A stretch of 64,000 bases of DNA from positions 1,302,001 to 1,366,000 of the forward strand of contig CAUYUJ010000001.1 of the NCBI GenBank assembly GCA_963575745.1, given 5' to 3'. Source of the stretch: Prorocentrum cordatum (taxonomy: Eukaryota). The position numbers and the translations under genes are program-made. This document shows positions 8,701 to 55,870 of the stretch, one piece after another; position 1 is the first letter of the stretch, and each line of letters starts with the position of its first letter. The notes beneath the pieces are model-generated. The model was not told the DNA's origin. It saw only the letters and a program-made list of their open reading frames with translations, and searched no databases.

Positions 8701-9079
8701 GAGGAACAAGAAGCATGGATTGAGGCGAGTGGATTAGAGGCGGGTGTTGCTGCCATGTAGAGTCGGCGTGCTCCGTCGTCCAATCGGGCGGCATTGCCAG
8801 CACGTGAGCGTCGCAGAAAAACGAGGTGGTGTTCGCCGACATTGGCGCGTGAGTTGCCCGCGCAAGGTCGCGCGGAAGCGCTTTCGTTTGCATTGCAGCG
8901 TGCGGCGTTGGCAGCCCGCGGAAGCCACCGCGTAAGGTCGCCATGCCATCTCGCGTAAGACCTGTTGCTTTTCGTCGCCCATGTCTCGGGAGGTGCCTTT
9001 TCCCAATCCGTGGATTCTTCGCGGGGTGCAAATCTGGAATGTGTAGAGTATTTAAATTCGGGCATTCCTGGAAGATTCG

Positions 9080-9690
9080 TGGGGGCTTCTGGGGGCCTCT
9101 TTGGGACATCTTGGGGCTGCTTGGGGGCTTGTTGGGAGCCTGTTGGGGCGTCTTGGGGGAGTCATGGGCCGTCTTCTGGCGCTGTTCGGCATTGGCGCCT
9201 TCAGAGGCCATCTTGAGGGCGGGACTCTTTCGGCTGTATTGGTGTCTTCGTGAGGCTTCCAAGGGCCGTCTTGGGGGTCCTTTCGGCCGTCTTGGGGCCC
9301 ACTTGGGCCAATTTGGGGTTGTCTTGGAAACCTTGGGGCCACCTTTGGGCCGTCCTGGAGCCCTCTTGGGGGCTCCTTGGGCTGTCTTGCGGCCACATTG
9401 GATGCATCTGGGGCTGTCCTGGGGCGTCAGAAGCCCGAGAAGACGAGAACAGTAAAATAGATCCAAAACCTAAAGCAACTATATGTTGTTGTTGAGTTTC
9501 AAAGCCCTCTCGAGGAACCTCTTGGAACCCTCTTAAGCCGTCTTGATGGCTTCTTGTGCCGTATTGGGTCCGCTTGGGCAGTTTTGGGGTCATCTTGGGG
9601 CGTCTTGGAACCGTCTTCTTGGGCAGCTTCGACATCTTCCAGAACCGTCTCGAGGCCCAGCCCGCGAAGCCAAAACCGTTGACTTTCCGT
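9080..9690. repeat. Diverged member of the CTTGG/CCAAG-periodic dispersed repeat family
   Basis: Recurrent TCTTGG motifs around an A-rich core (~9440-9500), the same layout as the 933-bp unit. Confidence 0.6.
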
Positions 9691-16439: not shown

Positions 16440-17480
16440 CCTGTCTGGGCCAACAGGCGGCCAAGACGTGCCCAGGGAGGCGCAAGTGGCCCCCAAACCG
16501 GTCCTAGACGGCACCGGGGCGCTCAAAGATCGCCCCTGGACGCTCAAGATGGTTCCCATTGAGCCCAAGAAGCCGCTACAACGCCCCAAGTTGTTTTCCA
16601 AGAGAGCCCCAAGCGGCCAAAATCATTGATTTTGCATAGGAAAACGTACATGTTTAGCATCGACGCCTTTTCGGTGTTCACGGCGTGCACGAGGGTACAA
16701 GAGGCCCCAACGACGGCCCCAAGACGGCCCAAGAGGCTCCCACCACGGCCCAAGAGGAGCCCAAGACAGCCCCGGAGGCGGCCAAGGCGTGCTCAAGAGG
16801 CGGCCAAGACGTGTCCACGGAGCCCCAAGAGGCTCCCAAATCGGTCCAAGACGGCCCCAGGACTCTCAAAGATCGCCCCTGGACACCCAAGATGGCTCCC
16901 ATAGAGCCCAAGAGGCCGCTACGACGCCCTACGAAGTTTCCCAAAGGAGCCCCAACCGGCCAAAATCATTGATTTTGAATACATTTTTAGCATCGACGAT
17001 TTGTCGGTCTTCACGGCGTGCACGACGGTACAAGAGGCCCCAAAGACGGCCCCAAGAGGCCACCAACACGGCCCGAGACAGCCCGAGGGGCGGCCAAGGC
17101 GTGGCCAGAGGTCCCCGTGAGGCTCCCAAAACGTTCCATGGCGGCCCTGGAGCGCTCAAAGCTAGTAGCCCTCGGACGCCCAAGACGGTTCTCACAGCGC
17201 CCAAGAGACCGCGAAGACGCCCCAAGAGGTCCCCAAAAGGCTGTCCGAAAGGGTCCCAAGAGGCCAAAATCTTTGATTTTGCGTTGGAAAAAACGTATAT
17301 CCTTAGCATGTACGATTTGTCGGTCTTCACAACGGTGACGATGGTACAAGAGGCCCCCAAGAGAGTCCCAAAGCGGCCCAAAAGGCTCCAAAGACGTCCC
17401 GAGAGGGGGCCAAGACACCCCAAGAGGTCCCCAATTCGAAGGCGGCTCCAAGAGGAGCCCAAGAGGAGGAGGAACGAGGA
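16440..17480. repeat. CCAAG-periodic repeat with three ~300-345-bp subunits (same family as the 933-bp unit, opposite orientation)
   Basis: GGCCAAAATC(A/T)TTGATTTT at ~16615, 16958 and 17262 is the reverse complement of AAAATCAATGATTTTGGCC at ~4140. The region begins just after the (TA)n run. Confidence 0.75.
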
Positions 17481-24035: not shown

Positions 24036-25071
24036 TGCGGCGACGAGGCGGCGGGCGCCGACGGGGCGGCGACGGCTGCCACGCGGCGGCAGGACCGCCA
24101 CCCGGGCCCATACGGCGGGCGGTGACGAGGCGGCGGCGGGGCAGCGACGGCAACCACACGGCGACGGACCCGGCGCGCCGGCCCAGACGACGGGCGGCGA
24201 CGAGGCGGCGGCGGCGGCCACACAGCCGCTAGACCGACGCGCAGGCCCGGACGACGGGCGGCGACGAGGTGGCGACGGGGCCGCGACGGCGACCACATGG
24301 CAGCCAGACCGACGCGCAGGCCCACTTCTTAGAAAACGAGCAGAACATTGGAGTGCAAGCACTGCACGGGAGTTTGGGCGGTTTTCTTTGGCCCCCAGGG
24401 GCCTCCTGGGCACTGCGCCAGGGCATTGGCGGGAACCGCATTTAAAACGTCGTCCGAAATGTGGTTCCCGCTCCAGCCCCGGCGTCATTATTGCCGCCGA
24501 CCCCCACCCTCTCCCCGGACCAGTTGTTCGATGATCCCCGGGTTTTCTCTGTGGGCCTGGGGCCAGCCAAAAATTCGAGGTCCTCGCGTTTCAAGCTGAC
24601 GGTCTCCAAGATGATTCCTACACGGCATCCAGGATTCCAAAAGAGCAGTTAAAATGCTTCGCGACACCTTGATGTGGCCCCGAGAAGTCCCCATCTGTCT
24701 CCCACAACGATGCACACGTCAATGCACCTACAGTGAATATGCCAGCGCGTTGCGAAATAATGAAAAGGTCGGTGATGTTGATGAGGATGGCTCGGATAGA
24801 CAACGACAGGACATCAGGCACGCACGCCGATGATGACCTAGGTTTTCCTGCGCGCACTGACATATGGTTCGACGATCACAAGCTGCAACGTCAATCTGCA
24901 CACCCAACAGCGTCGCCAGCCACTCCTGCAGATTGAACAATGCAGTAGTGCAATCGGCACCGAATGTGTAATCACTTCCGATGGCTTATTGGGGGTTCCA
25001 TTTTTTTGATGTTGGGGATTTGTGGGCCTATTTGGAAGGACCGAAAACCATCCCGTGGCATGACACTGGAC

Positions 25072-34204: not shown

Positions 34205-35085
34205 CCATTCGTTTTCTTTATACATTATTTCTCCCTGTTGCACCCCGAGGCCAGTGTTTAGGGCGGGTCGGGCGTTTCGCCTGAGACTTCATCATCAGTT
34301 TTGACCCTGAAGCTTAACAAGTAGCAACAGCTTCACAGATGGAGGGCGGGTCGTTTTCAAAATGTGGCTCCTCGCCTCAGCGCCGCGCACGTTCGATTTA
34401 GAAATCTGCACGAGTTGAACGGATTGAGGGCGACCCGTTCTCAAAATGTGGCTCCTCGCTTTAGCGCCGCGCACATTCGTTTTCAAAAAAATGCAGCAGT
34501 TTAACGGATTGAGGGCGAGCCGTTTTCAAAGTGTGGTTGTCGCCTTATCGCCGCGCACATTCGTTTTCAAAACATGTGCAATAATTTCAAGGATTGAGGG
34601 AGACTCGTTTTCAAGATGTGGTTCTCGCCTTAGCGCCGCGCACATTCGTTTTGACAAAATGTGTTTCACTGATTGAGAGCGAGCCGTTTTCAAAATGTGG
34701 CTCTCGCCATAGCGCCGCACACAGTCGTTTTCAAAAAATGCGCAAGAGCTTCACGGATTCCTCTGATCTGCGTACCAGAAATTTTTTTTTGGAGGGATTC
34801 AGGATTACGAAAAGGTGCAACAGTTAATTACATTGATTCGCAGCGTTGAGGTCCCAGGAATCGCGTTCTGGCACGATTCCGGATCGTCAAGACGCAACAA
34901 TCAGGTTGATCCGTGGCGTTGGAATATTGAGAACAATGTTTTGGCATGCTTCAGGGTCTTCAAACGGTTGTCTGCCAACGAGGCAGTTCCCTCTGTGGAA
35001 AAGAACCGGTGTAGGGGCATGTGAGAAAGGAGCTTGGAGGGAGGGTTTATTCCAACATCGTTGATGACCCTTGTGTTTACACTGG
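34205..35085. mobile_element. Dispersed non-coding element carrying an internal 84-bp tandem array, lying between (CCT)n tracts
   Basis: The left terminal motif CTCCCTGTTGCACCCCGAGGCC (34231-34252) is shared with 61840-61861. CCT tracts flank both sides. Confidence 0.5.
34335..34760. repeat. ~84-bp minisatellite, 5 copies
   Basis: GAT(T/G)GAG(G/A)G..CGTTTTCAAAATGTGG..TCGC..AGCGCCGCGCACATTCG units at ~34338, 34422, 34507, 34592 and 34671. Confidence 0.9.
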
Positions 35086-39272: not shown

Positions 39273-39616
39273 TGCTATGCTATGCCATGCCATGCTATGC
39301 TGCGCTATGATATGCTATGATATGCTATGCTATGCTAAGCTATGATATGTCATGCTGCGCCGTGTTATGCTTAGCGATGATATGTTATGCTATGCTATGC
39401 TAAGCTGCGCTATGTTCTGCTATGATATGATATGCTATGATATGCTGCGCTATGCTATGCTACGCTATGCTATGCTATGATGTGCTCTGTTATGCTAAAG
39501 CTCAGCGAAGCTAAGATGAAGGTAAGCTAAGCTAAGATAAACCTGAGCTAAGATGAAGCTAAGCTAAGCTAAGATGAAATAAGCTAAGCTAAGATGAGAT
39601 AAGCACCGCTAAGCTA
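39273..39616. repeat. Pentamer microsatellite (ATGCT)n grading into (AAGCT)n
   Basis: Direct reading of the sequence. Confidence 0.9.
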
Positions 39617-39922
39617 AGGGGACGTAACTGGGGGAACCGCGGGGCGGATACTGGGAGACCCGCCCGGGGCGCTTTCCACTGCCCGACCCCTTTAAGCCCA
39701 GAGAGTAAGAACCCTTCTAGGCAGAGCCTAGGTAGGGAACATCTAAAAAGAGAGAGGAAGGAACGGGGGGGGGGGCCCACAAACTACTACGAGGCGGCCG
39801 AGCCCCCAGGGAACCCGAGGGAGGGACAAGGGTCAAGGCCACCAGGGCTCAGGAGGACAGGGGGAGGCAAGGGAACCTGGGGTGGCTCGGCCCCCTACTA
39901 TCGGCCCCCGCGGGGCCAGGTT

Positions 39923-41330
39923 TCAGACGAAGAGGTCGACCTCATCCCCCTCGCGGCCGCCTGCGCCCCCTAGGGTATCTTTGGGGGCCGGCACGCTCGC
40001 CGCCGAGGGGGCGTTCACGACCCTGTACTGCGTGGGGCTGGTGTCTTTGTTGGACGTGTGCGTGGTGTTGCCGTAGGGGTCCTTCATGTGCCCCTCGTAT
40101 GGGCGTGGGCCCAGGCCGAGGTGGCCTGCTGCTCCGCTCTCGCTGTTGTTGTTTCCTTTTTTGGACTGACCCTGCCCCCCGCCCTTCGGTGCCAGCGGCG
40201 CTGCGGGTGTACAGGGGGCTGTCACCACCCTTCGGCGCCGCGCGCTGTGGTGACAAGCCGTTGTGGTCCTCCTCCTCGTCTGGGTTGATCTTCGCCATTG
40301 TCGCGTTGTGGTTGCCGTCGAGAGGGTACTGGTCGTGGTTGTGGTCGCGTTCGACGTCATGGTAGTTCTGGGAGTAGCCGTCGTTCCTACCATGCTGGGA
40401 CCTGTGCTGTCTGGCTCCTGTGGCAGTGTATGGCGACGCCCGTCTGGCGCTGGTACCCTCTGGGAGTGTCGTCTCCTGATGTTGGGTTGGCTGCTCATGC
40501 TCGCTTTCTACGTGGTAGCGGTCATAGTATGTCACGAATTCGGTTATACTGTCTGTCCGTTGTGCGTCGTTGTTGTTGCTTTCGCGTGCTGCTGCCATGA
40601 TGCGTCGCTGGTGTGCTGGAAATGCTTGCTCGTGATCGTGTGGTCGGTCACAGTGACAAGGTTGTGGCTCTTCAAGTATTGTAGTTCGTGGGGGGCGGTG
40701 GTCGAGATTGGTCCGATGTTCATCCAGCAGGCCGTGTCGTTGGCGATACACGTGTACATGAGGAAGATAGCGTCACGTGTCTTCGCGTTGTCGTCCATGA
40801 TGGTATTTAAGTCTTTTGTGCTGGAGTCTCTTCCCAACGAGTTTTGCTCATCACGAAGTCATTTGCTGTTGTCGAGGCTCGGTATGGTTTTCTTGTAGTA
40901 AACGGCGTCGGTTGTACCATTCCGTATAGCTTTGTTAATAGCGTTGTTAGTGTAGTCAGGGCTTCTGTCATTATACGTCTGACTCGTGTCGTTCGCTGTA
41001 GTAGATATACGTACTCGTCGTTGCTGTAGGGTTGCTTGCTGCTCGATGCCGTTGACGATGCGCATAGTGTCTTCACTGGTGGCATTCTGGTCGGTGGTGA
41101 TCATAATCGTCGAAATCCGATGTGGTCTGACGTTGTCTGCCTCCGATGTATCACCGTCGGTTGTGTGGTGCCGTATGTGTTGTAAACGACTATCGTGTGT
41201 CTGGGTTCCTTCCGTCTGTCCTCGTCCCTCGTCCTGCTCTTCATCTGCTTGCGGTGACAGGGGAATTGGTGCCGGAATTATCGTTACATGTTCGTCGTCC
41301 GTGCCTGTTCGTTGTGCAGGTGGTGGCCCG
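39923..41330 (-). pseudogene. Uncharacterised coding-like extension downstream of the zinc fingers
   Basis: Consecutive ORF pieces 40859-41104 and 40544-40837 (same frame across one stop), then 39942-40751 and 39923-40498. Same strand composition as the LINE. Confidence 0.4.
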
Positions 41331-41371
41331 TAGAGTTGTAGGCACGGGCGTTCTGCGTAATCTTCGGGTAG

Positions 41372-41722
41372 TCATTTGTTTTTGCGTGTTCCTCGTATGT
41401 GCTTTATCTCTTCGTATAGGTCACTGGTTTCGTCGTCGTCGTCGAGCTGCTGGCTGTACGTCATGGCAAGTGATGCACACTGTCTGCTGGCGCACATGTG
41501 CTTATACAATCGGTTGACCGTCCCGTACTCCCTCACACAGAACTGGCATACAGTCCCGTGGATGTAGTTGGTTATGGTTTCCTGATGCTTGTGCTTGGCG
41601 TGCATGTGCTTTTGGTACGCTGCCTTGCCGTTCAGGATTTGTCCACAGTTGTAACATAGGTACCTGCGATCATGTTGTGGGTCTTCAATCTCGGGCTTCG
41701 GGATGGTGGTGCCATCGCACAT
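41372..41722 (-). pseudogene. LINE ORF2 C-terminal double C2H2 zinc finger
   Basis: YLCYNCGQILNGKAAYQKHMHAKH and VCQFCVREYGTVNRLYKHMCASRQC. Confidence 0.8.
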
Positions 41723-41824
41723 GCCTTTGGTGCGTCTTCTCCAGGCGATTTTGGCTGCTTCTTCTTTGTTGAAGTCGACGGTTGTCTTGTAGGCGTGTGT
41801 AGTTATGCGTTTGTATTTGGATGG

Positions 41825-43690
41825 TTATTCTTTTGCTATGCCTATCCATTGGCGCATGTCGTCGTAGTGGGGCGTATTGTGGTGCTTGCTGGTGTGCACT
41901 TTGATATGTTGGAGGTCGTCTGCTACCGTACTTGTCCATCTGTCTTTGGTCTCGATGTCGTAGTCACGTAAGACTCTTAGTTCAGTAGGGCACGCGTTCG
42001 TTATCCGTAGAATATGTCGCAACCTTGTTTGCCGTAGTCTTTGTAGGAGTGTCGGGATGCCTGCCCAGCTGATGACCTCGATGTTGGTGATATTATCCCG
42101 CTGAGTTGTCTGATGGTCAATGCCCAATGCCATCCTCGCTGCTGCTGTGTACGTAGTGGCGATCCTGTCCGTGTCAGTCGTTTTTGCAGGTATCCATGTT
42201 CCTGCATTGTATAGTAGTCGTGAGTATCCAAGGGCATTGAGATAATGTATCTTAGCCGTATTAGTGATCTTGTCGCGCTTGAACATCGTCTTTCGAAGTG
42301 GTGTGGTAGCTTCCTTTAGAGCAAGTACACGTGCTGCAGCTTATTGGGTAAAGTCGCTCCGATCGTTTACCATTGCGCCCAGGACTTTGAGAGTTCGCGC
42401 AATAGTCACTGTCATCCCCATGTCCGTGTATTTTTTCTGGTCGATGTGCAATTGCCTCGCGACTCTTTGTCCTTCCTTATTATTGGTGAAGACGAGGAAG
42501 TTACCCTTGGTAATGTGAATGGGGAGTCCTCTCGATAGGGTTGTTCGTATTAGTATCCCCCACATGGTTTTGACTGTAGTCTCGATCGCATTGCCGTCGG
42601 TGACCGTTGCCATAGCTTTCACGTCGTCGACGAATGATGTTGTCGTCATAGTCTGGTCTTCAGGGCTATTGAAGAATACTGGGGAGCTGCCTGGTAATCT
42701 TACTGAGGCGTCCGCGTTGATCGCATCCTCGTGATAGTCTTTCGCGACTGCAGACATCAGCGCGTTGAACGCGAAGCCGGCTGTAGGTATTCCTGGTCGT
42801 GTTCCTAGCTTTGGTGCTGCGTAGTCTGAGTCGCTTTCGGTGAAGAACCACGTGGTGCGGTGGGCTTCGGTCAGCATCGAGAGCAAATGCTTGTTTTCTA
42901 TGTGGGTACTGACGATGCCGTTGTTGTTCATGAGGGTCTGTATAGCCGGATGCATGCATTGGGGAATATCCATATGGACGATCAGGTTGTCGATGTCGTC
43001 GGTGCTCATTTGGATGTCGTACACCGGTATCGTGGCTACCTTGTGAAAGGCAGTTTTCAGGTCGATCATGATCATGATGAGATTGGTTCCTTTCGCGGCT
43101 GCAAGGTTGAATGTCAGTCGCATTATAAGGTGGTTGGAGTCCGTGCTGTAGTGGTTTCTGCCTCCCATCTGAATACTGACGAATAGCCCAGGTAGCAAGT
43201 CCTTCATGCATTGTCGTATATATATGCATGCAGTGGTGCTTAATGATGGTGTTAGCGATCGATATCGATCGGTGGTTTTGTAGCGTCTCTTCGACCCCTT
43301 TTCCTTTTCCAGAAGTGCGTCATTCGTGATCCTTTGTGTGTCACTGCTTCTCGGATGAAAAGTGCAGTCTTTGAAATTAGCGGGTGCGTGTGGCGCGCCA
43401 TCTCTCGTGGTGCCGCATGGGCAAGGTCGTCGGTAATTTCGTCAGGTCGTGCAGCTCATCCAAGTTCGCACCGTGCCAATTGTTCTTCCAGCTCGTAGAT
43501 GCTAGCAAAGTTGTCGATGCTTCTGACCGTATTGTTCTCGCAGATGTCGTAGGTGTTGTTGTATTGCCCTGTTATGTCGGTATGTGTCATGAAAGCTGCA
43601 GCTTCTATGTCGCCGAAGTGGTGGGCGGCTTCTTTGTGCTTCGCCGCCGCGTCTGTGATAACCTCGCCATCGTTGTCCGCCATCATAGGG
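41825..43690 (-). pseudogene. Reverse transcriptase and thumb of a non-LTR element (interrupted)
   Basis: G*AARPDEI (domain 0), NHRSISI, QMGGR, MIDLKTAFHKV, GTRPGIPTAGFAFN, catalytic SFVDD, LKVLG, SRLLYNAGTW and RQTRLRHILRI. Confidence 0.9.
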
Positions 43691-44369
43691 CACGTCCGTG
43701 TATTGCGTCGCTTGCGCCCGCCAAACTACATTAGCTTGCGTACTCGTTTCCGTTCGTTGTGTGGCTCCTTGTTGTGCCTCGCTTCTGCTGCTCGTGTGGC
43801 TTGCTGGTTGATGAACTCGTCGTAGTCATCGTTGACCATTCGTGGTGATGTTTTCCGAGTCTCGTTGTACCTTTCCCGTGCAGCGAGGATAAATCCGTTG
43901 TAGCCGTTGTTGATGTTAGCCCGCTGTGTTTCGATGGCGAGTCGCACGAGTCCAATATAGTGCTGGCCGATGTATTTGGACGGTACGCTCCTTGTCGGGC
44001 GCTCGATTGTGTAGGCTATATTCTTGATAATTATTATGGTCACTATGTGGTGCTCTGGTCCATGCTGCGCCGCTTTCCGCAATAGCTTGGCAAGCCGTCG
44101 TCGGTCGATGATAAACTCGAATGTATGATCGGAGATGTATTCCTGCATCTTCTTGTGCTGGCTCTTGGGAAATGATGCAGTGGCTGCCTCCATGATGCTG
44201 AGCGTGTAGAAATAGGCGTGCCGGTCGAGGCTGGTATACCAGTCGGGGACCACGGTAGTTTCGAGCATTTGCTTGAATTTGTTGCTCGCCTCCTCGTCCG
44301 TCAGCTTTGTTCTGTCGATCTTAGGGAACAGCTTCTTTTTGGCCCTGGCCGATATTCGGCAAGCCACTT

Positions 44370-45165
44370 GTGGTTGGTGTGGTTGGTCTGCATTGGCTTG
44401 CTTTTTAAAACGTCTCGAGGTCTGGCATCGTCAAACATGCTGTCACAACTTGATGTAGTCGTTCGCTTAACATGATGTAGTCGATGCGGTGTCCATGTCC
44501 GTGGGCATCTTTCCACGCGCGGTGATCTTTGCCGCATGATCTGTGGGCATTGACGATAGGCATGTGCGCCGACGCAGCCAATTCATGTAGCCGCTGTCTA
44601 TGTTCGTCTTGTTGCTGTTGTAGACCTGCAGATCCAACCCATTGTGATGTCGTATATCCCACTCGCCCGTTCGCATCGATGAAGATTATGGACGGGTTGA
44701 ACTTCGATGCTTGCTTGGTTAGGTGAACCCAGAATCCATTTCGTTCTTTTGCGTTCTTCTCCTTATGCGGACCGTGCGCAGCACACACTATGTGGTCGAA
44801 GGCCTTCGCCTGGATCCGCACAATGAGTAGTCGTGGCTTGGCTACAATAACATGAAAGTCCGATGGCTGAAAAAAAATGGCCCCATTGGTGTTGTAGCAC
44901 GTGGTAACGCAAGGCTGGCCCACAATTGGCACCCGCAGTTATAGTTGTGATGTGGGCTGCTGATCATGCAGTACCCGTTGCTGGTAGCTACTCATCGCTC
45001 GCCACGTCCTTCTTGGATTCCAATCAGGTGTATATCGCGATGTTGTCGCTGTCGTCGCATGACCGGCCCCCGCCGTTCGTTAGTCCATCTTCCTGCTCTG
45101 GTCATGTTTTTCTTGATTGGCGGCTCCGCTTCTCTGACGCTCTCGACGTTGTAGGTCATGATATG
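44370..45165 (-). pseudogene. Apurinic/apyrimidinic-like (APE) endonuclease domain (frameshifted)
   Basis: Motifs IMTYNV, LIGIQEGR, AAHGPH, FIDANGRVG and HRIDYIM in canonical order. Confidence 0.85.
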
Positions 45166-45404
45166 AATCTTGATCTCCGCTGAGATGTTTGTAGTCTCCG
45201 TCGGTGCAATCATGTACTCGGGCTTGGCGTCGCGCTACGTGTTCCCGAAGATGAGGTTGTTGTCCTGTTTATCTGGGTATGCGTGTCGGTCTCGGCTGTT
45301 ATGGTCCAGCATTTCTTTCCCATTGATAATATTTGCTGGTAGTAATAACGAGTTGGAAGCTCCGCGGCACATTGTTAGTCGGCTCGTCCTTCTCGTGCTT
45401 CGCC

Positions 45405-45850
45405 CGTTCTTGCTTTGATAGGCAATCAGTAAGTTCGTTCCACGGCATCCCTTCGTGGCTTGGCACGCGGTGGAAGTCGATGCTGGCGATGGTGCTGGCG
45501 CACGCGTGTACAAGCTTGAGGTGCATGGCGAGGTCGCGGTCTGCGGTCGATACTGCCGTGCCGAGGCATTTTTCGATAACCGTCTCGCAGTCTGTAAAGA
45601 TGTTGACGTTCTGCGATTCGTTGGCCGCAAGTATCCACATAAGTGTCTGTATAACTGCCATGACCTCGCCTGTTGTGTTGGTATATGCGCTCCAATTAAC
45701 ATGCATAGTGTGGCTGTTGCTGACGATGCCGTAGCATGCGCCTCTGAATGTTCGTTCTTCGAACATATGTGTTTCCTGCAACAGTATGAAGGCCCAAGCG
45801 CAGCTGCATTTCTTCTTGATATTGTAGGACGCGTCCGTGTAAAAGTTCTT
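45405..45850 (-). pseudogene. RNase H type I domain located upstream of APE
   Basis: FYTDAS ... TNTTGEVMA ... IFTDCE ... HRVPSHEGMPWNELTD. The D-E-D-D catalytic set and the His loop are retained within ORF 45299-46234. Confidence 0.88.
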
Positions 45851-46459
45851 CGTCCTGTGGCTGTTGTTGCCGATGGGGGTCGAGTCGAGGGCGTACCGCG
45901 CTGCGGGGTGCAGGTCGTCTCCGTGGACGTTCTGATATAATGTCGGTGCGGGCGTTGCTTGTATCCTTGTCTTCAAGCTGCTGGTGTTGCCGAGGTCGCA
46001 CATGGCGTCGAGCTGTCGATGGCTGGTGCTGTATTGGCGTATTGTTTGTTGTCGGGTTGTTTCTTGGTTGATTGCATTGGTTGCTGCTCGGTGAATCGTC
46101 GGTTGGTCGGGTGTGTCCTTGTTTGATTTAACTCTAAATGGTTGCATAGCTCTGGTTGTGCTCGTGGTCGTGCTGGCTGTGTTTTTGTGAGTCTTGTCTT
46201 CTCGGAGTCGTCTCGGCTGTCGGAATGGTAGCATTGCGGGTCGCGTATCCTGTGCTGGCTCGTTGTGGTGATCGTCTTTTTGTAGTGCTACTGCACCGGT
46301 GCCCTGGGACGCTGTCAGGACTGCCGGCTATCCATAGCGGTTTGTGATACGTACAGTAGGTTGTCTTGTGGGCCTGCTTGTTGCGCGTGATACTGCTCGG
46401 CTGATCGGTCGCGTGAACTCCTCCTTCTTCGTTGTGATATTGGGGGCGTTGATCGCTGG

Positions 46460-46845
46460 GTCGGCGCGTTGATAATATGGTCGGTGTCTGGTCGAGTTGC
46501 TGCTGGTCTTGGCGCATAGGTGGTGGTCGCACTTATGAGGCCTCCATACACCGACTTCAAGTGGGGTTCGTGGCTGTCCCACCTCGTCCCGCTATGGCCA
46601 GGGGTCACAGTGCCCTCGGTGGGGGCGAACCCCAGGCCTTGTGCTTGCTTGGTCGGCGTGCTTATCGTTTGGTCGGTGCGTGGTCGGGTTGTTGCTGGTT
46701 GTTGCGCATTGGTTGTGGGCGCACTTGTGAGGCCTCCATGCACCGACTTCAAGTGGGATTCGTGGCTGTCCCACCTCGTCCCGCTATGGCTAGGGGTCGC
46801 AGTGCCATCGGTGGGGGCGAACCCTAGGCCTCGTGCTTGCTTCTG
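46460..46845 (-). repeat. 192-bp (64-aa) in-frame tandem duplication inside the LINE
   Basis: CACCGACTTCAAGTGG at 46549 and 46741. The peptide KQA.GLGFAPT.GT.TP.HSGTRWDSHE.HLKSV.GGL occurs twice. Confidence 0.9.
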
Positions 46846-47950
46846 CTCTCGGTAGGGGATGTCACGTCTGTCCTGTGCTCCGCCTGTGGGGACGGTGGGG
46901 GTGGCGAGTTCGGGCGGACCGCGGGGGCGCGGGTAGTGGCCGTCCTCCCCCCACCCCCCCCCCTGCCCCTCACCATCCCCCCCCGGCAGGCGCGGGCAGT
47001 ACTCGTCCTGCCCCCCCGCCCTTCGAGCCCGTCTCGAAGTTTGATCCTCGCCTCGCCAGGACAGCGTGGGCGCGCACGCGTTTTGGTTGGTTGTGGATGT
47101 CTTGCGTGTCATCGTTGTCATCGTCAGCGTCGGTTGTCGCGTCTGCTAGACCACTGAATCGGTTGTGCAAGGGTATGAGTGGTGGTCGTGGTAGCTGTGT
47201 CTGACGTGGTCATTGACTATGTCGCGTTGGTCGTTGTACGCGCTGCGTTTGTCGTAGGCTTGCTTCGTCGAGTCGGACCTCGATATTAGCGTCGCGGCTG
47301 CCCTCCTCGTCATCGCGGTCGTTGCAATATGTCTTGTCGTTGCGCAGGTCATTCAGGAACGTCTCCTCAATGTTGTCGAACTCACTCCAATGAAGAGCAT
47401 GTAGTAGCCTTCTTGTTGGTAAATTCCAAAAATGCGGCGTCTCTGTGCCAAAGTGGCTCCTCGCCTTGTGTATGCTATGTGCAGGAGGTCGGTCGGGTCG
47501 TGGCAGAAGGTGCAAAACTGGTCTCGCTGGCTCCCGCCTCGGTGGTGTTGAGCTAATGAATCGCGCTGTCTTTAAGTAGTGGCGTTGCAGTGTTGGTCTC
47601 GGGGATGCTCCGAGATTCAGCGTTGTTTCTTTGGTTGGTTGTTGTGGGGTCGGCTCGACTAGAGGTCCCCACCCTCGGCGTCGCGCGGCCTGGCCCGTGG
47701 TCGAGGTGGCCAAGCAAGTAGATTTCCCACTGCTCGTGGCTCTTCCTCTTCTCGGAAGTCGGGTGTAGCTCCGCTGTGCGTGTTACTGTTTTGCTTTTTG
47801 GGTTCGCGCATGCGCCGTTGGTTGGTCGATTTGGTTGCGTCGACGTCGGGGAAGTGAGGTGAGCGAACCCCAAAGCGCGCACCTCAGTGTCGCCCCAACA
47901 GCTATTTCCTCCTAGTGGAGAATGTGGTGGGGCCCTCGGGCTGTCTGCTG

Positions 47951-50947
47951 TCACCGCACGGGTCGATCGGCATCGATCTTCAGGCTGCGTGCTAGTGCCG
48001 AGATTGTTCTCAGGCGCGTTACTCGTGAGCTTTTGGATGTGACCACAGGCTCTGCTTGCCGGTGTGTCGGACTCCCCGTCTGGATCAGCAGCCCCCCATC
48101 GGGTTCAGTCTTAATCAGTTTTTTTGTAGAGGTGGGGTCGTCAGACCCATCATGGTTGCCAATTGGGATCGGCTTTCGGTCTGTCGGGTAGGTGAATATA
48201 TCTCCTACGCCGTGCATGCGCACCTTGCGCGTTGGTCGTTCGCGCGAGCTACTACTCCGGAGAGCTGACTTGGCTCTTGTAGGCGGCACTGGCTGAGCTC
48301 TGTCAGGTGTTCCGAGGTGGAAGCGGGGTGGATGGTCAGTATGCTGGATGGGAACTGTAGGCGTGATACTATCGATGGTCATCCGTCGTGGTGTTGTTGG
48401 TGTCTCACACTCTCCGTCTCGGCTGATGTCAATCAGTATGGTAGTGGTGGGTCGTCGATTCGAGTAGGCGTCGTCCTCGTTGATCCCGGGTGGTGCTGAA
48501 AGTGCCCGTACTGGTGGGAAGATGTACTTCCTTGGGTCGTAGTCTGGGGTTGATTGTTCGGCAAGTGGTGTCGGGCTTACTGGTGGCGTCGGGGTCAGCA
48601 TCGTTTCGGCGTCGTCTATGTGGTCTCGAAGATCCTCGTCGTGGTCGAGATTTGGCATGGGCGTCTTCTGACTGTCGTTTGTGCGTGGCGTGTCGGGACT
48701 GATACGTGCTTCGGCTGTTGCTGGGTCGTCTGGTGGTGGAAGTGGTGGTGCTCGTTCTGCTGGAAGCCGGAATGCAAAGCCAGTCTGATTGATGTTTAGG
48801 TCTCTGTCTGGCGTGCTGCTTGTTGCCCCTGCGTTCTTGCTCTCGCAGTCGACGTTGCTGTTCCACTCCTCGCTGTACGGGCTGATGTCGGAGTGGTGCT
48901 GGGTGTGCTCGCCTGGCATGATGAAATGCAGCGCGCTCTCCATTTCTTCGTCGCTTCTCTGCTGCTCGATATATGCCTGGTATTGTCTTCGCGTTTATTC
49001 TTCTATGTCCCTGACAATATCGATCCCCATTTCGCCGATGATCTCCGCTTCCATCTCCTCGTTCTTGATCAGCTCCTCCTGTAGCGCCTGTTCGAGAACT
49101 CGGTGCTGGTAATCTTGTTGCGCACTTTCCTCCGCCATGATGACTTGTTGTTGATGTAGTTCTGCGTGAAAACGCATCCTGGGCTCGTGTGCTTGATGTT
49201 GCTGTCGTCGTTCGTGTCGTAGTGCTTATTGCTGTATACGTTGATGGTAATATCTGGTGTGTTCTGCGTACTCGTCATAGTTTCTCTTCGCAGCGTGCTC
49301 TTCGTTGTTGGCGTATTGCTGCGATTGTTGCACCATCACCTGCCACGTAATCTGCTCATTTCTTAGCCACTCTTGTACCTGGTGTTGTGCTCTCTCGTTC
49401 TCATCTTGTAGTACGCGTTCATACTCTGCCATCTTGTGGAGTGACTCCCACGCTGCGGTATGAGCGTCTTGCACATTGATCTTCTCATGGTTGATGCGGC
49501 CTTCTGCAAGGACAATCTGTCGACGTAGTCGCTGTTGTTCGATTTGTACCTATTCGTACTTCTGATGAAGAGCTCGTTGAGCCTGAGGCTGTTCTTCGCG
49601 TCTTGCTTGTATTCCCTTCTCCTTCAGTTCGTGATCCCTGGTCATCTTGAACTGCATCTTCCCGTAGTGGATCAGCGCCTCCTCCTGCAGCTTCTCCTTG
49701 TGGTGTTCGTGTCCCTCTCTGAACAGTCCTCGTTGTTTCTCAAGCTTCTCCGCGCACTCATTCTGTAGCTTCCAGGCCATGTCTGCAAGCTGCTTTTCAT
49801 GTTGTCTTTTGTCAATTGTCTTCTTCTTCGCGCTGTCGAGATTATTTGCGGCCATCTCCATCTTCAGCTCCCTGTACTCATGTTTCATGGCCTGGGTATC
49901 TTTGGTATCTTTTTGAGTACGCTGCTCGTCCTTTTGGATGTTGGCATTGCGCTCGCTGTGGAAGAAATGGAGGCGGCGCCGGTGCTGGATGCACTCTTCC
50001 TGCTGCATGTCCAGACGCTCGCTCAATTCCTCGATCAACCTGGTTACATTGTGTCCTTCGTCCGCTTGGCATCGTTCTGCTTTTTGACCTTGCCGACGTG
50101 GATGTGGCGTCTTATCACGAGTCCTCCTGTCGTCCCTGCTTTCGTCCGATGTAGCTTCTCCGTCTCCTTCACAGCTTGAGCTTTCGGCTCCTGCTTCTAA
50201 TCGTTCGCGAATGCCTCGCTGACCTTTTGCTTCAGTGATCAAAACCTTGATCTTGACGACATCCACATCGGAATTTTCCAGCTGGTCTTTCCATGCTTTG
50301 ACTTGTTCTGCGATCGCTCCCCTCTTCTTGTTGACCACGTCGAGGTCCTCTCTGTAGATGTTGATCCCAGCGTTCGGGTCGATAGTCAGGTTGATCATAC
50401 CTTTTGCGATTTCCAAGTCGCCGATCAGTCGCCCTGCATCCACTCTTGCTTGTCGGGCACCAGCGAGCTGATCAGCGAGCCTTCCGAGTCGAGCCGCCTT
50501 GGTATGCTTCCGCATGCGGCGTAGCTCCGACTCGTGAGGGGGGTAGGAGAAGGTCTCGCGGTTGCCCGCCCTCGCCTCCGTGCTCCGCATGAACTCGTCG
50601 ATGATGTCTTGCTGCTTCTTCGTGTAAACGAAGTCCTGCATCTGGGTCGCCTGTGCGGTGTCTTGTTGGCTACTTCTGCTGTTGGCTTGGCGTCCTCTCG
50701 ATGCAGACCTGGTCCTTCTTGAAGCCGAACGTTTCGCTGAACCTTTCTTGTCCTGGCGACTGTAGTTGGTGTCCTGGTAGTAGTTGTCGTTGCACCTGCT
50801 TTTCGCCCTCGAGGAACTTCTCCATGGCCAAGGTTGTCCTCCCACGGGGGGGCCTATCGCCGTGGACCTTTCGGCGCGATGTGCCGTCCACCTCGGCGCA
50901 TGCCCCCCCGTGCTGGCGCCTCTTTTACCTGGACCTTTGGAAGCCAT
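47951..50947 (-). pseudogene. LINE ORF1-like protein (~1000 codons): basic R/S-rich N-terminus, long E/Q/K coiled-coil, P/T-rich tail; three in-frame stops
   Basis: ORFs 49550-51016, 49226-49474, 48995-49177 and 47951-48943 are all in one frame, separated by single TAG/TAA/TAA codons. First ATG at 50947 (MASKG). Confidence 0.7.
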
Positions 50948-51240
50948 CGTGGCGCTGGGGCTGCTGGGGCTGCTGCGCCGCTGCGCTGGGGCTGCTGCGC
51001 TGGGGCTGCTGTGCACTGCGGTGCTGGCTGAATCTATTGGCTGCCGCTGCCAGTCGGACCAGGAGACGATCTTGGCTGCGGACCTGACGGGCGCGGCGAT
51101 GCCACGCGGGTTCGCCCCCTCGGGGCGCGGCGGCTCGCGCCGCCGCGGCTGCGGCGCCTATGGCGCGCTGCACGCGAGCCCAGGCCGACTGGGGCGACCG
51201 ACGGGGCGACGACGGCCCAGCCCCTCCTCGGCAGATGGCT

Positions 51241-54200
51241 TCTCCTCCTCCTCATCATCATCCTCATCCTCCTCCTCCTCCTCCTCCTCCTCCTCCTCCT
51301 CCTCCCCTCCTCCCCCTCCTCCTCCTCCTCCTCCTCCTGCTCCTCCTCCTCCTCCTCCTCCTCCTCCTCCTCCTCTTCCTCCTCCTCCCTCCCACCCCCA
51401 CCCCCACCCCCATCCCCATCCCCCTCCCTGGCCTCCTCCAACTCCTCCTCCTCCTCTCTCCTCCTCCTCCCCTCCTCCTCCTCCTCCTCCTCCTCCTCCT
51501 CCTCCCTCCTCCTCCTCCTCCTCCTCCTCCTCCTCCTGCTCCTCCTCCTCCTCCTCCTCCTCCTGCTCCTCCTCCTCCTCCTCCTCCGCCTCTTCCTCCT
51601 CCTCCTGCTCTTCCTCCTCCTCCTCCTCCTCCTCCTCCTCCTCCTTCTCCTCCCCCTCCTCCTCCTCCTCCTCCTCCTCCTCCTCTCCTCCTCCTCCTCC
51701 TCCTCCTCTCTTCCTCTTCGTCCTCCTCCTCCTTCTCCGTCTCCTCCTCCTTCTCCTCCTTCTCTCCTCCCCCCCCCCTCCTCCTCCTCATCCTCCTCTT
51801 CCTCCTATTCATCCTCCTCATAATTCTCCTCTTCATCCCCCTTCAGCCTTCTCATACCAATCATCCTCCTATTCCTCCTCATCCTCCTCCTCCTGGTCCT
51901 CCTCTTCCTCCTCATCTTCCTCATCATCCTCCTCCTCCTCGTCCTCCTCTCCCTCCTCCTCTTCATCGTCCTCCTCATCATGTTCCTCCGCCTCGTCCGT
52001 CTCCTCCTCATCCGTCTCCTCATGCTCATCATCACCAGCAGCAGCATCAGCATCCGTATCAACAGCAGCATCGTCAGCAGCATCATGAGCAGCATCATCA
52101 GCAGCATCGTCAGCATCAGCATCATCAGTATCAGCATCGTCTTCATCATCTTTATCAGCATCATTCGCATCATCATCAGCAGCAGCATCAGCATCAGCAT
52201 CGTCATCATCATCAGCAGCAGCAGCAGTCGCATTCTCCCCGATCCGCCGCCTCCTCATCCTCATCCTTTTATTCCTCTTCCTCCTCCTCCTCTTCAACCT
52301 CATCCTCCTCCTCATCATCCGTCTCCTCCCCCTCTTCCTCCTCATCCTCCGCCTCCTCATCCTCCTCCTCCTCTTCTTCCTCCTCCTCCTCCTCCTTCTG
52401 TTCCTCCTCCTCATCTTCCTCTTCCTCCTCCTCCTCCTCCTCTTCCTCCTCCTCCTCCTCCTTCTGTTCCTCCTCATCCTCATCCTCATCCTCCTCCTCC
52501 TCCCCGCCCCCCTCCCCACCCCCCTCCCCGTCCTCATCGTCCGCCTCCTCATCATCATCCTCTTCCGCTTCCTCCTCCTCCTCCGCCTCCTCTCCTCATC
52601 GCGTCCTTCTCCTCCTAATCCTCCGCATCCTCCTCCTCCTCGTCCTCCTCCTCCTCCTCATCCGCCGTCCATTACGCCCCATCTTCCTCTTCCCCTTCCT
52701 CCTCCTCCTCCTCATGCTCATCCTCCTCCTGCTCCTCATCCTCCTCGTCCTCATCTTCCTCCTCCTCAGGTTCTTCCTCCTCCGCATCATCATCAGCAGC
52801 AGCAGCAGCATCAGCAGCATCATCATCATCGTCAGCATCCGCCTCATCTTCCTCCTCCTCCTCGTCATCATCATCATCAGCAGCAGCAGCATCCTCTTCC
52901 TCCTCCTCATCCTCGTCCTCATCCTGCTCCTCATCCTCTCATCCCCTCTCTACTCAGTTCCTCCTTCTCCTCCTCCTCCTCCTTCTCCTCCTCCTCATCA
53001 TCATCATCATCATCATCATCGTCCTCATCCTCCGCATCCTCCTGCTCCTCCTCCGGTTCTGCCTCCTCGTCCTCCTCCTCCTCCTCCTCCTCATCCTCCT
53101 CCCCTTCCTCCTCGTCCTCCTCCTTTGCCCCCTCCTCCTCCTCATCCTCCTCCTCATCCTCCTCTCCCTCCTCCCCCACCCACCCACCCACCACCCACCC
53201 ACCACCCACCCACCAACACCACCCCTCATCCTATCCCTCCTCCTCCTTCTTCTCCTCCTCCTCCTCCTCCTCCTCCTCTTCGTCCTCCCCCTCTGCATCC
53301 TCCCTCCTCTTCATCCTCCATCTCCTCCTCCTCCTCTCATCCTCCTCCCTCCTCCTCATCCTCCTCATCATCCTCCTCATCCTCTTTCTCCTCCTCCCGC
53401 CTCCGCATCCTCCTCCGCATCCTCCTCCTCCGTCTCCTCTTCATCCTCCTCCCTCCTCCTCATCCTCCTCATCCTCTTTTTGTTCCTCCTCATCCCGCCT
53501 CCGCATCCTCCTCCGCATCCCTCCTCCCCTTCCTCCTCGTCCTCCTCCTTTGCCCCCTCCTCCTCCTCATCCTCCTCCTCATCCTCCTCTCCCTCCTCCC
53601 CCACCCACCCACCACACCCCCCACCCCCCACCAACCCACCCCTCATCCTATCCCTCCTCCTCCTTCTTCTCCTCCTCCTCCTCTTCGTCCTCCCCCTCTG
53701 CATCCTCCTCCTCTTCATCCTCCATCTCCTCCTCCTCCTCCTCATCCTCCTCCCTCCTCCTCATCCTCCTCATCATCCTCCTCCCCTCTTTCTTCCTCCT
53801 CCGCCTCCGCAATCCTCCTCCGCATCCTCCTCCTCCGTCTCCTCTTCACCTCCTCCCTCCTCCTCATCCTCCTCTCCTCGTTCCTCCTCATCCCGCCATC
53901 CGCATCCTCCTCCGCATCCTCCTCCGCCTTCTCATCCTCCTCCTCCTCCTCCTCCTCCTCCCTCTCCTCCTCCTCCTCCTCCTCCTCCTCCTCCTCCTCC
54001 TCCTCCTCCTCTCCTCCGCCTCCTCCTCCTCATCCGCCTCCGCATTCCAATCATCGTCCCCAATATCATCATCTTCCTCCTCATCGTTCTTCTCCCTCCC
54101 CCCCCTCCGCTTCCTCATCGTCCTCCTCCACCTCCTCCTCCTTTCTCTCCCCATCCTCATGATTATCATCCTCCTCCTTCTCATCGTCCTCCTCATCCTC

Positions 54201-55139
54201 CTCCTCTTCCTCCCTCCTCATCATCACCATCATCATCAGCATCATCCTCAGTTCCTCTCCTTCCTCCTCCTCTTCCTCATCCTCCTATTCCTCCTCATCC
54301 TCCTTCTCCTCCTCCTGGTCCTCCTCATCATCTCCTCATCGTCATCATCAGCATCATCCTCCCAATTCACCGCATCCCCCTCCTTCTCATCGTCCTCCTC
54401 ATCCTCTTCCTCCTCCTCCTCCTCCTCCTCCTCCTCCTCCTCCTCATCATCATCATCATCATCATCATCAGCAGCAGCATCGTCTTCCTTCTCATCCTCC
54501 TCCTCGTCCGCCTCATCCTCCTCCCCCTCCTCCTCGTCCTCCGTTCCCCCTCACTCTCCCCCATCCCGCTCCCCCTCCCCTCCCTCATCCCTGTCCCTTT
54601 CCTCCTCCTCCTCCTCCTCCTCCTTCCCATCATCATCATACTCCTCATCCTCATCCTCATCCTCATCATCATCATCAGCATCAGCAGCAGCATCATCATC
54701 ATCATCGTCATCTTCATCTTCATCATCATAATCGTCATCATCATCAGCATCAGCATCAGCATCAGCATCAGCATCAGCATCGTCGTCCTTCTCCTCTGCC
54801 TCCTCCTTCGTCTCATCCTCCTTCCTCCGCCTCATCCTCCTCTTCCTCATGGTCATCATCCTCCCCGTCCTCCTCCTCCTCCTCCTCATCCTCCTCATCC
54901 TCCTCCTCGTCCTCGTGTTGCTTCTCCTCATCATCATCCCCCCTTTCCTCCTCTTCCTCTTCCTCCGCCTCCTCCACCTCCTCCTCATCCCCCTTCTCCT
55001 CCTCTTCATCCTCCTCCGCCTCCTCCACCTCCTCCTCATCCCCTCCTCCTCCTCCCCCTCCTCCTCCTTCTTTCCTCCCCGTCCTCCTCCTCCTCCTCCT
55101 CCTCCTCCTCCTCCTCCTCCATCTCATCATCATCATCAG

Positions 55140-55180
<41 letters not shown>

Positions 55181-55249
55181 CCATCATCATCCTCATCCTC
55201 ATCCTCATCCTCATCATCCTCGTCGTCGTCGTTGTCGTCGTCGTCGTCG

Positions 55250-55283
<34 letters not shown>

Positions 55284-55870
55284 CTCCCTGCTCCTCCTGA
55301 TCCTCCTCATCCTCCTCCTCCGTCTTCGTGTCCTCTTCCTCCTCTTCTTAATCCTCCTGCTCCTCCTCCTCCTTCTCCTCCTCCTCCTCCTCTTCCTCCT
55401 CATCATTAGCATCACCAGCATCACCATTATCACCAGCCCATCATCAGCATCAGCATCATCAGCATCCTCAGCAACAGTATCGTCAGTATCGTCATCGTCA
55501 GCATCATCATCATCAGCATAATCAGCAGCAGCAGCATCATTATCGTCAGCATCATCGTCGTCGGCATCGGCAGCATCAGCATCGAAAGCATCAGCATCAG
55601 CATCAGCATCATCATCGTCATCCGCAGCATCATCATCAGCATCATAACCATTAATAGCATCATCAGCATCATCATCGTCAGCATCAGCATCAGCATAATC
55701 ATCAGCATCGTCATCAGCACCATCATCATCAACAACATCGTCATCAGCATCCTTATCGGCATCGTCATCATTAACCGCAGCATCAGCATCATCAGCATCA
55801 ATGTCATCACCATCAGCATCACCAGCATCAGCATCATCCGCAGCATCATCATCGGCAGCATCATCAACAT
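51241..55870 (+). repeat. 4.6-kb compound trinucleotide tract (CCT, CAT, CAG, CGT) with an internal ~425-bp duplication
   Basis: Direct reading. The block CCCCTTCCTCCTCGTCCTCCTCCTTTGCCCC..CACCCACCC..CCTATCCCT recurs at ~53100 and ~53525. Confidence 0.95.

What the first reader, a model, noticed from the sequence alone, without database searches (positions are those of the whole stretch)
39770..51240. Giant LINE with RNase H upstream of the endonuclease (RNH-APE-RT-C2H2 order)
Seen: on the minus strand a catalytically complete RNase HI (DAS/GE/TD/H..NE..D, ~45850-45405) precedes the APE (45165-44370), RT (FVDD) and two C2H2 fingers, downstream of a ~1000-codon coiled-coil ORF1. Established: APE-type non-LTR elements that carry RNase H (I, Ingi, Tad1, R1/LOA, plant L1) usually place it after RT, and most are well under 11 kb. 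Inference: this is a poorly described, possibly dinoflagellate-specific, LINE lineage with an independently acquired N-terminal RNase H.
Basis: partly seen in the sequence, partly recalled or inferred. Interest (0 to 1): 0.8.

Follow-up and report, generated by a model that had tools for sequence, protein, structure and literature searches.

The report
Dinoflagellate LINE with front-end RNase H
This is a broken 11.5-kb copy of a large family of jumping genes, likely from dinoflagellates, whose RNA-cutting RNase H domain sits in front of the DNA-cutting and copying domains instead of behind them, an order kept across dozens of distant relatives and not described for this type of element in the papers I could search.

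Summary
The window holds one decayed LINE (minus strand, about 51241-39765): ORF1, then RNase H, APE, RT and two zinc fingers. Of 165 relatives, 66 carry all three domains, all 66 in the order RNH-APE-RT; 56 of 57 with room before APE have the RNH, none has one after RT. In 17 of 20 DNA loci RNH and APE share an unbroken frame; the five catalytic residues are kept in 55-56 of 56. Seven complete relatives are 10.1-11.7 kb. Their RT forms a long-stemmed group with a 30-residue insertion, apart from the I-group sample I had. Most relatives end in a cytosine-methyltransferase-like domain, decayed here. Not shown: independent capture of the RNH (a tree joining it with I-group RNH was not rejected), a place outside all named clades (no Repbase sequences), strict dinoflagellate range. 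Nearest precedent: oomycete Utopia (RNH before RT, but RLE-type and archaeal-like RNH). This scan noted the same order earlier on another piece of this genome (e1-7625536). Verdict: new variant of a known kind.

The parts
39765..51241 (-). Whole element: full-length, decayed APE-type LINE, about 11.5 kb
   Evidence: 5' end abuts (CTC)n array at 51242; 3' terminal motif; contigs of run X1 cover 30 of 30 bins; no terminal repeats in a self-BLAST; no target-site duplication above 7 bp
50948..51241 (-). 5' untranslated region (GC-rich); no spliced-leader relic found
47951..50947 (-). ORF1, 999 codons, basic N-terminus, charged helical (likely coiled-coil) middle, Pro-rich end; internal stops at 49552, 49228, 48997
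   Evidence: homologous to N-termini of Prorocentrum cordatum models P0001 and P0181 (27-31% identity, E 1e-32 to 4e-37); sibling contigs read a sense codon at 48997 (7 contigs, all depth)
45848..48104 (-). Likely N-terminal low-complexity part of ORF2 (starts in the -1 frame of ORF1; frame changes near 47571, 46985, 46330); holds a 192-bp tandem duplication at 46478-46842
   Evidence: near-open frames; 2 sibling contigs lack one base at 47571; tandem repeat; relatives carry up to 2310 residues before the RNH
45398..45847 (-). RNase H, His-type (D-E-D-H-D complete)
   Evidence: Pfam PF00075 E 3e-9; profile; catalytic columns; family profile hits E. coli RNase HI best among solved structures
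45163..45397 (-). RNH-APE linker (about 78 codons; frameshift near 45300, stop at 45237 in this copy)
   Evidence: aligns through both frames with the continuous linker of P0001; family linker 64-104 residues, median 79
44411..45162 (-). APE endonuclease (stop at 44994, frameshift near 44890 in this copy)
   Evidence: profile hits in two frames; sibling contigs read a sense codon at 44994 (5 contigs, all depth); model of an intact relative matches L1 endonuclease
42365..43264 (-). Reverse transcriptase core, FVDD at 42634-42623, with the family's 30-residue insertion between motifs 3 and 4
   Evidence: best solved relatives R2 and L1 ORF2p
41480..41660 (-). Zinc-finger pair: one C2H2, one C2HC
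40546..41479 (-). Continuation of ORF2 (stops at 41374, 40861); likely a decayed remnant of the family's cytosine-methyltransferase-like domain, catalytic motifs not recognisable
   Evidence: aligns with the tails of P0017 and P0018; P0018's tail hits the domain profile (E 1.6e-17) but the window's does not
39923..40545 (-). Likely low-complexity end of ORF2, in shifted frames, to a stop at 39925-39923
   Evidence: P0017 residues 630-667 match 40283-40170 at 50%; last frame read by eye against the end of P0001
39765..39922 (-). 3' untranslated region with the family's terminal motif (GGCCGC-N13-GTGGGCC at 39799-39774), predicted stem-loop; ends in a C run, not an A tail
51242..55401 (.). (CTC)n microsatellite array flanking the 5' end (not part of the element)

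Best explanation
The stretch is a dead, full-length copy of an old and diverse lineage of APE-type non-LTR retrotransposons, likely of dinoflagellates, whose ORF2 carries a His-type RNase H directly in front of the endonuclease and would use it to remove the RNA template during target-primed reverse transcription. Shown: domain order, one open frame in intact relatives, complete and invariant catalytic residues, sibling copies over the whole length, decay of this copy. Inferred from what is known of LINEs: ORF1p coats the RNA, ORF2p binds the conserved 3' stem-loop, APE nicks the target, RT copies the RNA from the nick, and the tethered RNase H clears the RNA so that the second strand can be made. 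The RNase H is predicted to be a separately folded module on a flexible linker, so its place in the chain need not change the chemistry. I think it most likely (about 0.6) that it was captured once in this lineage, next to APE, after the split from RNH-less relatives such as L018; that step is not shown.
For: Order RNH<APE<RT in 66 of 66 three-domain proteins among 165 examined; RNH in 56 of 57 with at least 240 residues before APE; none after RT in 104 proteins with at least 450 residues there (the profile does detect ordinary C-terminal RNH). Pfam alone shows the order in P0003, P0004, P0007, P0011, L004. DNA loci: RNH-APE unbroken in 17 of 20, RNH-RT unbroken in 13 of 16. D, E, D, H, D kept in 56, 56, 56, 56, 55 of 56 domains while the rest is about 25% alike. 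Linker length 64-104 residues in 65 proteins. AlphaFold model of RNH-APE from L002: pLDDT 82, pTM 0.54, low-confidence linker; folds match E. coli RNase HI and L1 endonuclease. Same-length ORF2 proteins recur on separate contigs (three of 1567 aa, three of 1772 aa). Run X1: 1270 contigs at under 90 to over 99% identity across 30 of 30 bins, two stops absent in siblings. RT group with L018 has SH-aLRT 100 and a motif 3-4 spacing of 73-83 residues against 48-50 in outgroups; L018 as outside sister fits better by 14.7 lnL.
Against: No activity was measured. One of 57 (P0086) and locus L018 lack the RNH, so it is dispensable in the wider group. RNH trees are weak: free tree joins it with Bacillota-type RNase H (SH-aLRT 90), but dino+I-group is not rejected (p-AU 0.59) and dino alone is not rejected either (0.66). 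No eukaryotic cellular, archaeal-like, giant-virus, Ingi, Tad1, R1, Proto1 or Dualen RNH was in the tree. The quick RT tree placed L018 inside the group, which would mean loss. Some proteins are spliced gene models. Of the 20 loci, 14 come from one metagenome assembly. No A tail or target duplication in this copy.
Confidence: 0.8

Rival explanations
1. Same element, but the RNase H is the ancestral non-LTR RNase H (the kind found after RT in the I group, Proto1 and Dualen) that was moved to the front by domain shuffling, not a new capture.
For: Both are His-type. A tree with dino and I-group RNH as one clade has lnL 3.2 higher than the free tree, p-AU 0.59. The dino profile scores I-group RNH (mean 47.8 bits) as high as Bacillota-type (46.7) and E. 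coli-type (43.4) domains.
Against: The free tree separates them (I-group SH-aLRT 98); the RTs are far apart; the closest RNH-less relative L018 has no RNH at either end; no remnant after RT in 104 long tails.
Confidence: 0.3
2. The lineage is already catalogued: it belongs to a Repbase/Dfam clade or to the 'LINEs lacking DNMT' of de Mendoza et al. 2018, and the order is drawn in an entry or figure I could not see.
For: Symbiodiniaceae LINEs were collected and put on a tree in PMC5890265; the Fig. 1e legend names RNase_H without saying for which element; relatives are abundant in Symbiodinium and Cladocopium. Repbase, Dfam, Kojima and Fujiwara 2005 and Kapitonov 2009 were not readable.
Against: In the text and the review file of PMC5890265 RNase H is tied to DIRS and Gypsy elements and the LINE DNMT is in ORF1. 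Kojima and Jurka 2015 call an RNH upstream of RT 'unique' to oomycete Utopia. Searches listed no paper describing it.
Confidence: 0.3
3. The RNase H has another main job than clearing the template, for instance removing R-loops at the simple-repeat sites where these elements insert, or acting in trans on host retrocopies.
For: It sits next to the endonuclease, not RT; 6 of 7 measured relatives begin after a TA-rich run and all 7 end in A4-8 plus TA-rich DNA; this copy abuts a (CTC)n array.
Against: No direct evidence; template removal is the default role given for retroelement RNH (PMC5348765), though that paper says the benefit for non-LTR elements is poorly understood.
Confidence: 0.12
4. 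The RNase H is a nested insertion or an assembly chimera peculiar to this locus.
For: In this copy RNH and APE are in different frames.
Against: Same order and linker in 66 relatives and 17 unbroken DNA loci; the linker aligns residue by residue with P0001 across the break.
Confidence: 0.01

Closest known systems
Utopia elements of oomycetes (Kojima and Jurka 2015, PMC4640811; passages read)
   Same: Non-LTR retrotransposon with RNase H upstream of RT; the paper calls this position unique.
   Different: Utopia uses a restriction-like endonuclease, has an archaeal-like RNH (Arg in place of His) and targets U2 snRNA genes. Here the endonuclease is APE, lying between RNH and RT, and the RNH is His-type (56 of 56).
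I-group LINEs with RNase H (I, Ingi, Nimb, Loa, R1, Tad1, Loner, Outcast; list from PMC4640811; clade label of my sample is inferred from its APE-RT-RNH-CCHC order)
   Same: APE, RT and a His-type RNase H in ORF2.
   Different: RNH lies after RT (L028 and its 120 relatives); RT lacks the 30-residue insertion and forms a separate group; ORF2 is about 1250 residues against 2600-3400.
SymbioLINE-Dnmt (de Mendoza et al. 2018, PMC5890265; parts 1 and 5 of 7, passages, review-file passages; figures not seen)
   Same: Dinoflagellate APE-type LINEs that carry a divergent cytosine methyltransferase; old, many subfamilies.
   Different: There the DNMT is in ORF1 and no poly-A tail is reported; here the methyltransferase-like domain ends ORF2 (77 of 97 long tails; fold matches DNMT1/DNMT3/HaeIII weakly), ORF1 is a coiled-coil protein and relatives end in A4-8. 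The text gives no RNH for the LINEs.
Plant Ta11 L1 and oomycete L1 with archaeal-like RNase H (Ustyantsev et al. 2017, PMC5348765; parts 1-3 of 5 read)
   Same: APE-type LINEs that gained an RNase H separately.
   Different: Their RNH is Arg-type and at the C-terminal end of ORF2.
Dualen/RandI (cryptophyte Dualen-1_GCr as described in PMC5029228; passage read)
   Same: Very long algal LINEs with APE, RT, RNase H and extra domains.
   Different: Order there is APE-RT-RNH-CCHC-RLE; no RLE seen here.

Membership tests
APE-type non-LTR retrotransposon (LINE) | APE endonuclease upstream of RT in ORF2 | tested here: met
APE-type non-LTR retrotransposon (LINE) | RT of the non-LTR type | tested here: met
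   RT profile hits R2 and L1 ORF2p first among solved structures, E 3e-5 to 5e-4
APE-type non-LTR retrotransposon (LINE) | No long terminal repeats | tested here: met
   self-BLAST shows only the internal 192-bp duplication
APE-type non-LTR retrotransposon (LINE) | 3' A-rich or repeat tail and target-site duplication | tested here: inconclusive
   absent in this copy; short A tails in intact relatives
I group (I, Ingi, Nimb, Loa, R1, Tad1, Loner, Outcast) | RNase H downstream of RT | tested here: not met
   0 of 104 long tails; upstream in 66 of 66
I group (I, Ingi, Nimb, Loa, R1, Tad1, Loner, Outcast) | RT branches within the I group | tested here: inconclusive
   outside the 11 crustacean-type rows sampled; Ingi, Tad1, R1, Loa not sampled
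Utopia (oomycete) | RNase H upstream of RT | tested here: met
Utopia (oomycete) | Restriction-like endonuclease instead of APE | tested here: not met
   APE present
Utopia (oomycete) | Archaeal-like RNH with Arg at the His position | tested here: not met
   His in 56 of 56
Plant or oomycete L1 with aRNH | Arg-type RNH at the C-terminus of ORF2 | tested here: not met
Dualen/RandI | Both APE and RLE, RNH after RT | tested here: not met
   RNH is before APE; no RLE family in Pfam scans of 30 relatives, though a divergent RLE could be missed
SymbioLINE-Dnmt | DNMT encoded by ORF1 | tested here: not met
   ORF1 has no Pfam DNMT hit and is a coiled-coil-type protein in the window and in relatives
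SymbioLINE-Dnmt | RT in the SymbioLINE clade | not testable with these tools
   reference sequences not available as usable records
Other Repbase clades (Ambal, Proto1, Proto2, RTE, L1, Tx1, CR1 ...) | RT placement by RTclass1 or a reference tree | not testable with these tools
   no Repbase or Dfam library; Ambal appears only as a name in PMC5753468

The most novel reading that the evidence does not exclude
An undescribed clade of 10-12 kb dinoflagellate LINEs with the ORF2 order RNase H - APE - RT - zinc fingers - cytosine-methyltransferase-like domain, whose RNase H is a separate capture from a cellular or viral His-type enzyme and the first one placed in front of an APE; in Symbiodiniaceae-type members ORF1 is overprinted inside an ORF2 frame held open by selection.
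Probability: 0.45. Interest if true: 0.75.

Novelty: new variant of a known kind. Interest (0 to 1): 0.6.

Why it matters
Why some LINEs carry their own RNase H while others rely on the host's is an open question (PMC5348765 calls the repeated acquisitions enigmatic). A lineage that keeps a catalytically complete RNase H at the opposite end of ORF2, with an RNH-less sister for comparison, shows that position is free while the activity is under selection, and gives matched pairs for assays. The family is abundant in dinoflagellate genomes yet barely seen by standard profiles (of six near-complete ORF2 frames of about 3000-3800 codons, none hit more than two of the three Pfam domains), so it is likely misannotated as host genes and under-counted. 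It is also a candidate engine for the retrogenes of dinoflagellates (inference).

Tried and rejected
No whole genome is held for this window, so copies could not be collected and no genomic copy number is given. No RNA holder listed; runs X2 and X3 gave only low-complexity matches. Read laying showed 12 of 147 indels, so the frameshifts at 45300 and 44890 could not be checked in siblings. No target-site duplication and no spliced-leader relic. No other RT, APE or RNH in the window; a second match to the 3' motif at 56717 has no coding sequence behind it and is taken as chance. No relatives in viral contigs for the RT or RNH alignments. ESM Atlas: nearest clusters are unnamed or ordinary LINE proteins; for the RNH alone one look-alike cluster is from giant viruses (score 0.92, 152 of 256 features), a lead I could not test. 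The first RNH tree had badly cut rows and was replaced (11 cellular rows dropped or re-cut, 5 dino and 6 I-group rows thinned out; L128 was mislabelled Bacillota-type and groups with E. coli-type). All trees are 'quick' searches that constrained searches improved on, so branch order inside the groups is unreliable. My recollection that oomycete L1 or Dualen carry an N-terminal RNH was not borne out by the passages read. The methyltransferase-like profile finds nothing in the window or among PDB sequences. The ORF1 profile of Symbiodiniaceae-type relatives does not match the window's ORF1. The window line used a wrong frame and was redone.
Full report
Observation. The frame 46327-45302 matches Pfam RNase_H at E 3e-9 with all five catalytic residues. 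Profiles built from relatives place RNH at 45847-45398, APE at 45162-44411 (two frames) and the RT core at 43264-42365. A C2H2 finger and a C2HC finger follow. ORF1 runs from the ATG at 50947 for 999 codons with three internal stops. The copy is dead: ORF2 has at least eight frameshifts and about nine stops. No other retroelement domain lies in the window.

Is the order real? The RNH alone found one long relative and the RT region 15 among 7917 candidates; a full-library search gave 1480 hits, of which the best 150 were listed. I mapped RNH, APE and RT on these 165 proteins with profiles seeded on Pfam-confirmed stretches. Sixty-six hold all three domains and all 66 have RNH, then APE, then RT. 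Of 57 with at least 240 residues before APE, 56 have the RNH; the exception P0086 has a partial APE and an RT almost identical to RNH-bearing P0087. None of 104 proteins with at least 450 residues after RT has an RNH there, although the profile does detect ordinary C-terminal RNH. The linker is 64-104 residues in 65 proteins. In 56 complete domains D, E, D, H and D are kept in 56, 56, 56, 56 and 55. Because some proteins are spliced gene models, I checked DNA: of 28 metagenome loci, 20 hold RNH and APE, in one unbroken frame in 17; RNH to RT is unbroken in 13 of 16. Fourteen of the 20 come from one assembly, but as divergent families. The window's broken linker aligns residue by residue with the continuous linker of P0001. 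A nested insertion is excluded.

Copies and ends. One public run holds 1270 contigs that cover all 30 bins at under 90 to over 99% identity; at 44994 and 48997 all laid contigs (5 and 7) read a sense codon where this copy has a stop. Seven complete relatives measure 10.1-11.7 kb, start with a shared 5' word, six of them right after a TA-rich run, and end in A4-8 followed by TA-rich DNA. Their last 50 bases share a GGCCGC...GTGRGC motif that is predicted to fold as a stem-loop; the window has it at 39799-39774, which fixes the 3' end. The window copy has no A tail, no target duplication over 7 bp and a (CTC)n array at its 5' end.

Host range. Explicit taxon names among relatives: Prorocentrum cordatum (P0001 at 44% identity, P0021, P0181, P0182), Symbiodinium (P0009, P0016, P0087), Cladocopium (P0052), and one 146-residue fragment labelled Pyramimonas. 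Most relatives are unnamed. A dinoflagellate host is likely; exclusivity is not shown.

RT. The family RT has 73-83 residues between motifs 3 and 4 against 48-50 in the outgroups, and forms a long-stemmed group (SH-aLRT 100) with L018, apart from 11 APE-RT-RNH elements of crustacean type and from L027. L018 shares the insertion and the finger pair but has APE straight after ORF1, with no RNH and no methyltransferase-like tail. The quick tree nested it; a constrained search with it outside was 14.7 lnL better (p-AU 0.78), so gain after the split and loss in L018 both remain open. Solved relatives are R2 and L1 ORF2p, equally distant. Named Repbase clades could not be sampled.

RNase H. It is His-type; the family profile scores E. 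coli RNase HI 48 bits, human RNase H1 32 and HIV RNase H 21, and NCBIfam gives ribonuclease HI for 11 of 17 members, far below cut-off. An AlphaFold model of RNH-APE from L002 (pLDDT 82, pTM 0.54) shows two folded domains and an unresolved linker, matching E. coli RNase HI and the L1 endonuclease. In a 59-row tree the dinoflagellate domains fall with Bacillota-type RNase H (SH-aLRT 90) and apart from I-group RNH (98), but dino plus I-group as one clade is not rejected (p-AU 0.59), nor is dino alone (0.66). The origin is unresolved.

The rest of ORF2. Seventy-seven of 97 long tails hold a conserved domain with an F-x-G-x-R-R-x-G-D and a G-P-P-C motif; its model matches DNMT1, DNMT3 and HaeIII methyltransferases weakly (best E 9e-5, TM about 0.33). 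The window's tail aligns with those of P0017 and P0018 but has lost the motifs and does not hit the profile. In 12 loci with an ORF1, the ORF2 frame across ORF1 has 0 stops in 10, against 9-22 expected from synonymous permutation (the ORF1s were picked from ORF lists of those loci). The window's ORF1 is of another type and its -1 frame has 29 stops against 45 expected, so the overlap is not shown for this subfamily.

Mechanism. [quoted passage not shown] Invariant catalytic residues across about 25% identity argue that the activity is needed in most members; L018 shows it can be done without.

Literature. Kojima and Jurka 2015 (PMC4640811, passages) list the non-LTR groups with RNH and call the position upstream of RT unique to oomycete Utopia, which is RLE-type with an Arg-type RNH. 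Ustyantsev et al. 2017 (PMC5348765, parts 1-3 of 5) place L1 aRNH at the C-terminus. PMC5029228 (passage) gives APE-RT-RNH-CCHC-RLE for a cryptophyte Dualen. De Mendoza et al. 2018 (PMC5890265; parts 1 and 5 of 7, passages, review file; figures not held) describe Symbiodinium LINEs with a DNMT in ORF1 and others without, and tie RNase H to DIRS and Gypsy in the text. Passages of PMC11572971, PMC5753468, PMC3636483, PMC12130899, PMC11453091, PMC5718144 and PMC12344493 add nothing on this order. Searches listed no description. Repbase, Dfam, the Dualen paper and the RTclass1 paper could not be read, and figures are not held, so prior description is not excluded. Within this scan, e1-7625536 noted the same order and tail on another piece of the genome.

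Verdict. Real, widespread, conserved, and apparently undescribed for APE-type LINEs; ordinary chemistry in a new arrangement. New variant of a known kind, interest 0.6.

Noticed in passing
L007:4428-5696, L008:1056-2312, L009:2950-4104, L011:4224-5627, L013:3793-5277, L019:5799-6995, L021:5802-6953, L025:3717-5063, L018:60-1265: ORF1 (Cys4 finger plus coiled coil, 325-390 codons) lies wholly inside the ORF2 frame, which is stop-free across it in 10 of 12 loci against 9-22 stops expected; several have an upstream AUG and a hydrophobic leader in the ORF2 frame. Suggests overprinting and leaky scanning.
   Followed up: partly
L002:5473-6258, L007:14822-15646 and 77 of 97 long protein tails: C-terminal cytosine-methyltransferase-like domain with invariant PPC, invisible to Pfam and PDB sequence searches, weak fold match to DNMTs.
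   Followed up: partly
ends of L007, L008, L010, L011, L019, L021, L025: Shared 5' word after TA runs and short A tails followed by TA-rich DNA: likely preference for (TA)n microsatellites; the window copy instead abuts (CTC)n.
   Followed up: partly
L018:101-5074: Sister LINE with the same RT insertion, finger pair and overlapping ORF1 but no RNase H and no methyltransferase-like tail; long 3' UTR and A tail.
   Followed up: partly
window 39650-39740: A very high-depth repeat (about 10,000 in run X1) lies just beyond the 3' end, followed by (TGCTA)n and (AAGCT)n arrays at 39273-39618.
   Followed up: no
window 3916-5700 and 9076-9608, 16698-17431: Families of 10/11/21/32-bp GC-rich tandem repeats, with 3916-4322 repeated at 4849-5255.
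   Followed up: no
window 34324-34759, 13341-13737, 24037-24324: Longer tandem arrays with periods of about 85, 160 and 64-139 bp.
   Followed up: no
L029 (NC_014502.1 167583-174929): A 7.3-kb cyanobacterial plasmid gene annotated 'ribonuclease H' with the RNase H domain inside a very long protein.
   Followed up: no
P0183 in the cluster of P0021: A 146-residue fragment labelled Pyramimonas sp. is over 90% like a Prorocentrum element protein: contamination or a second host.
   Followed up: no
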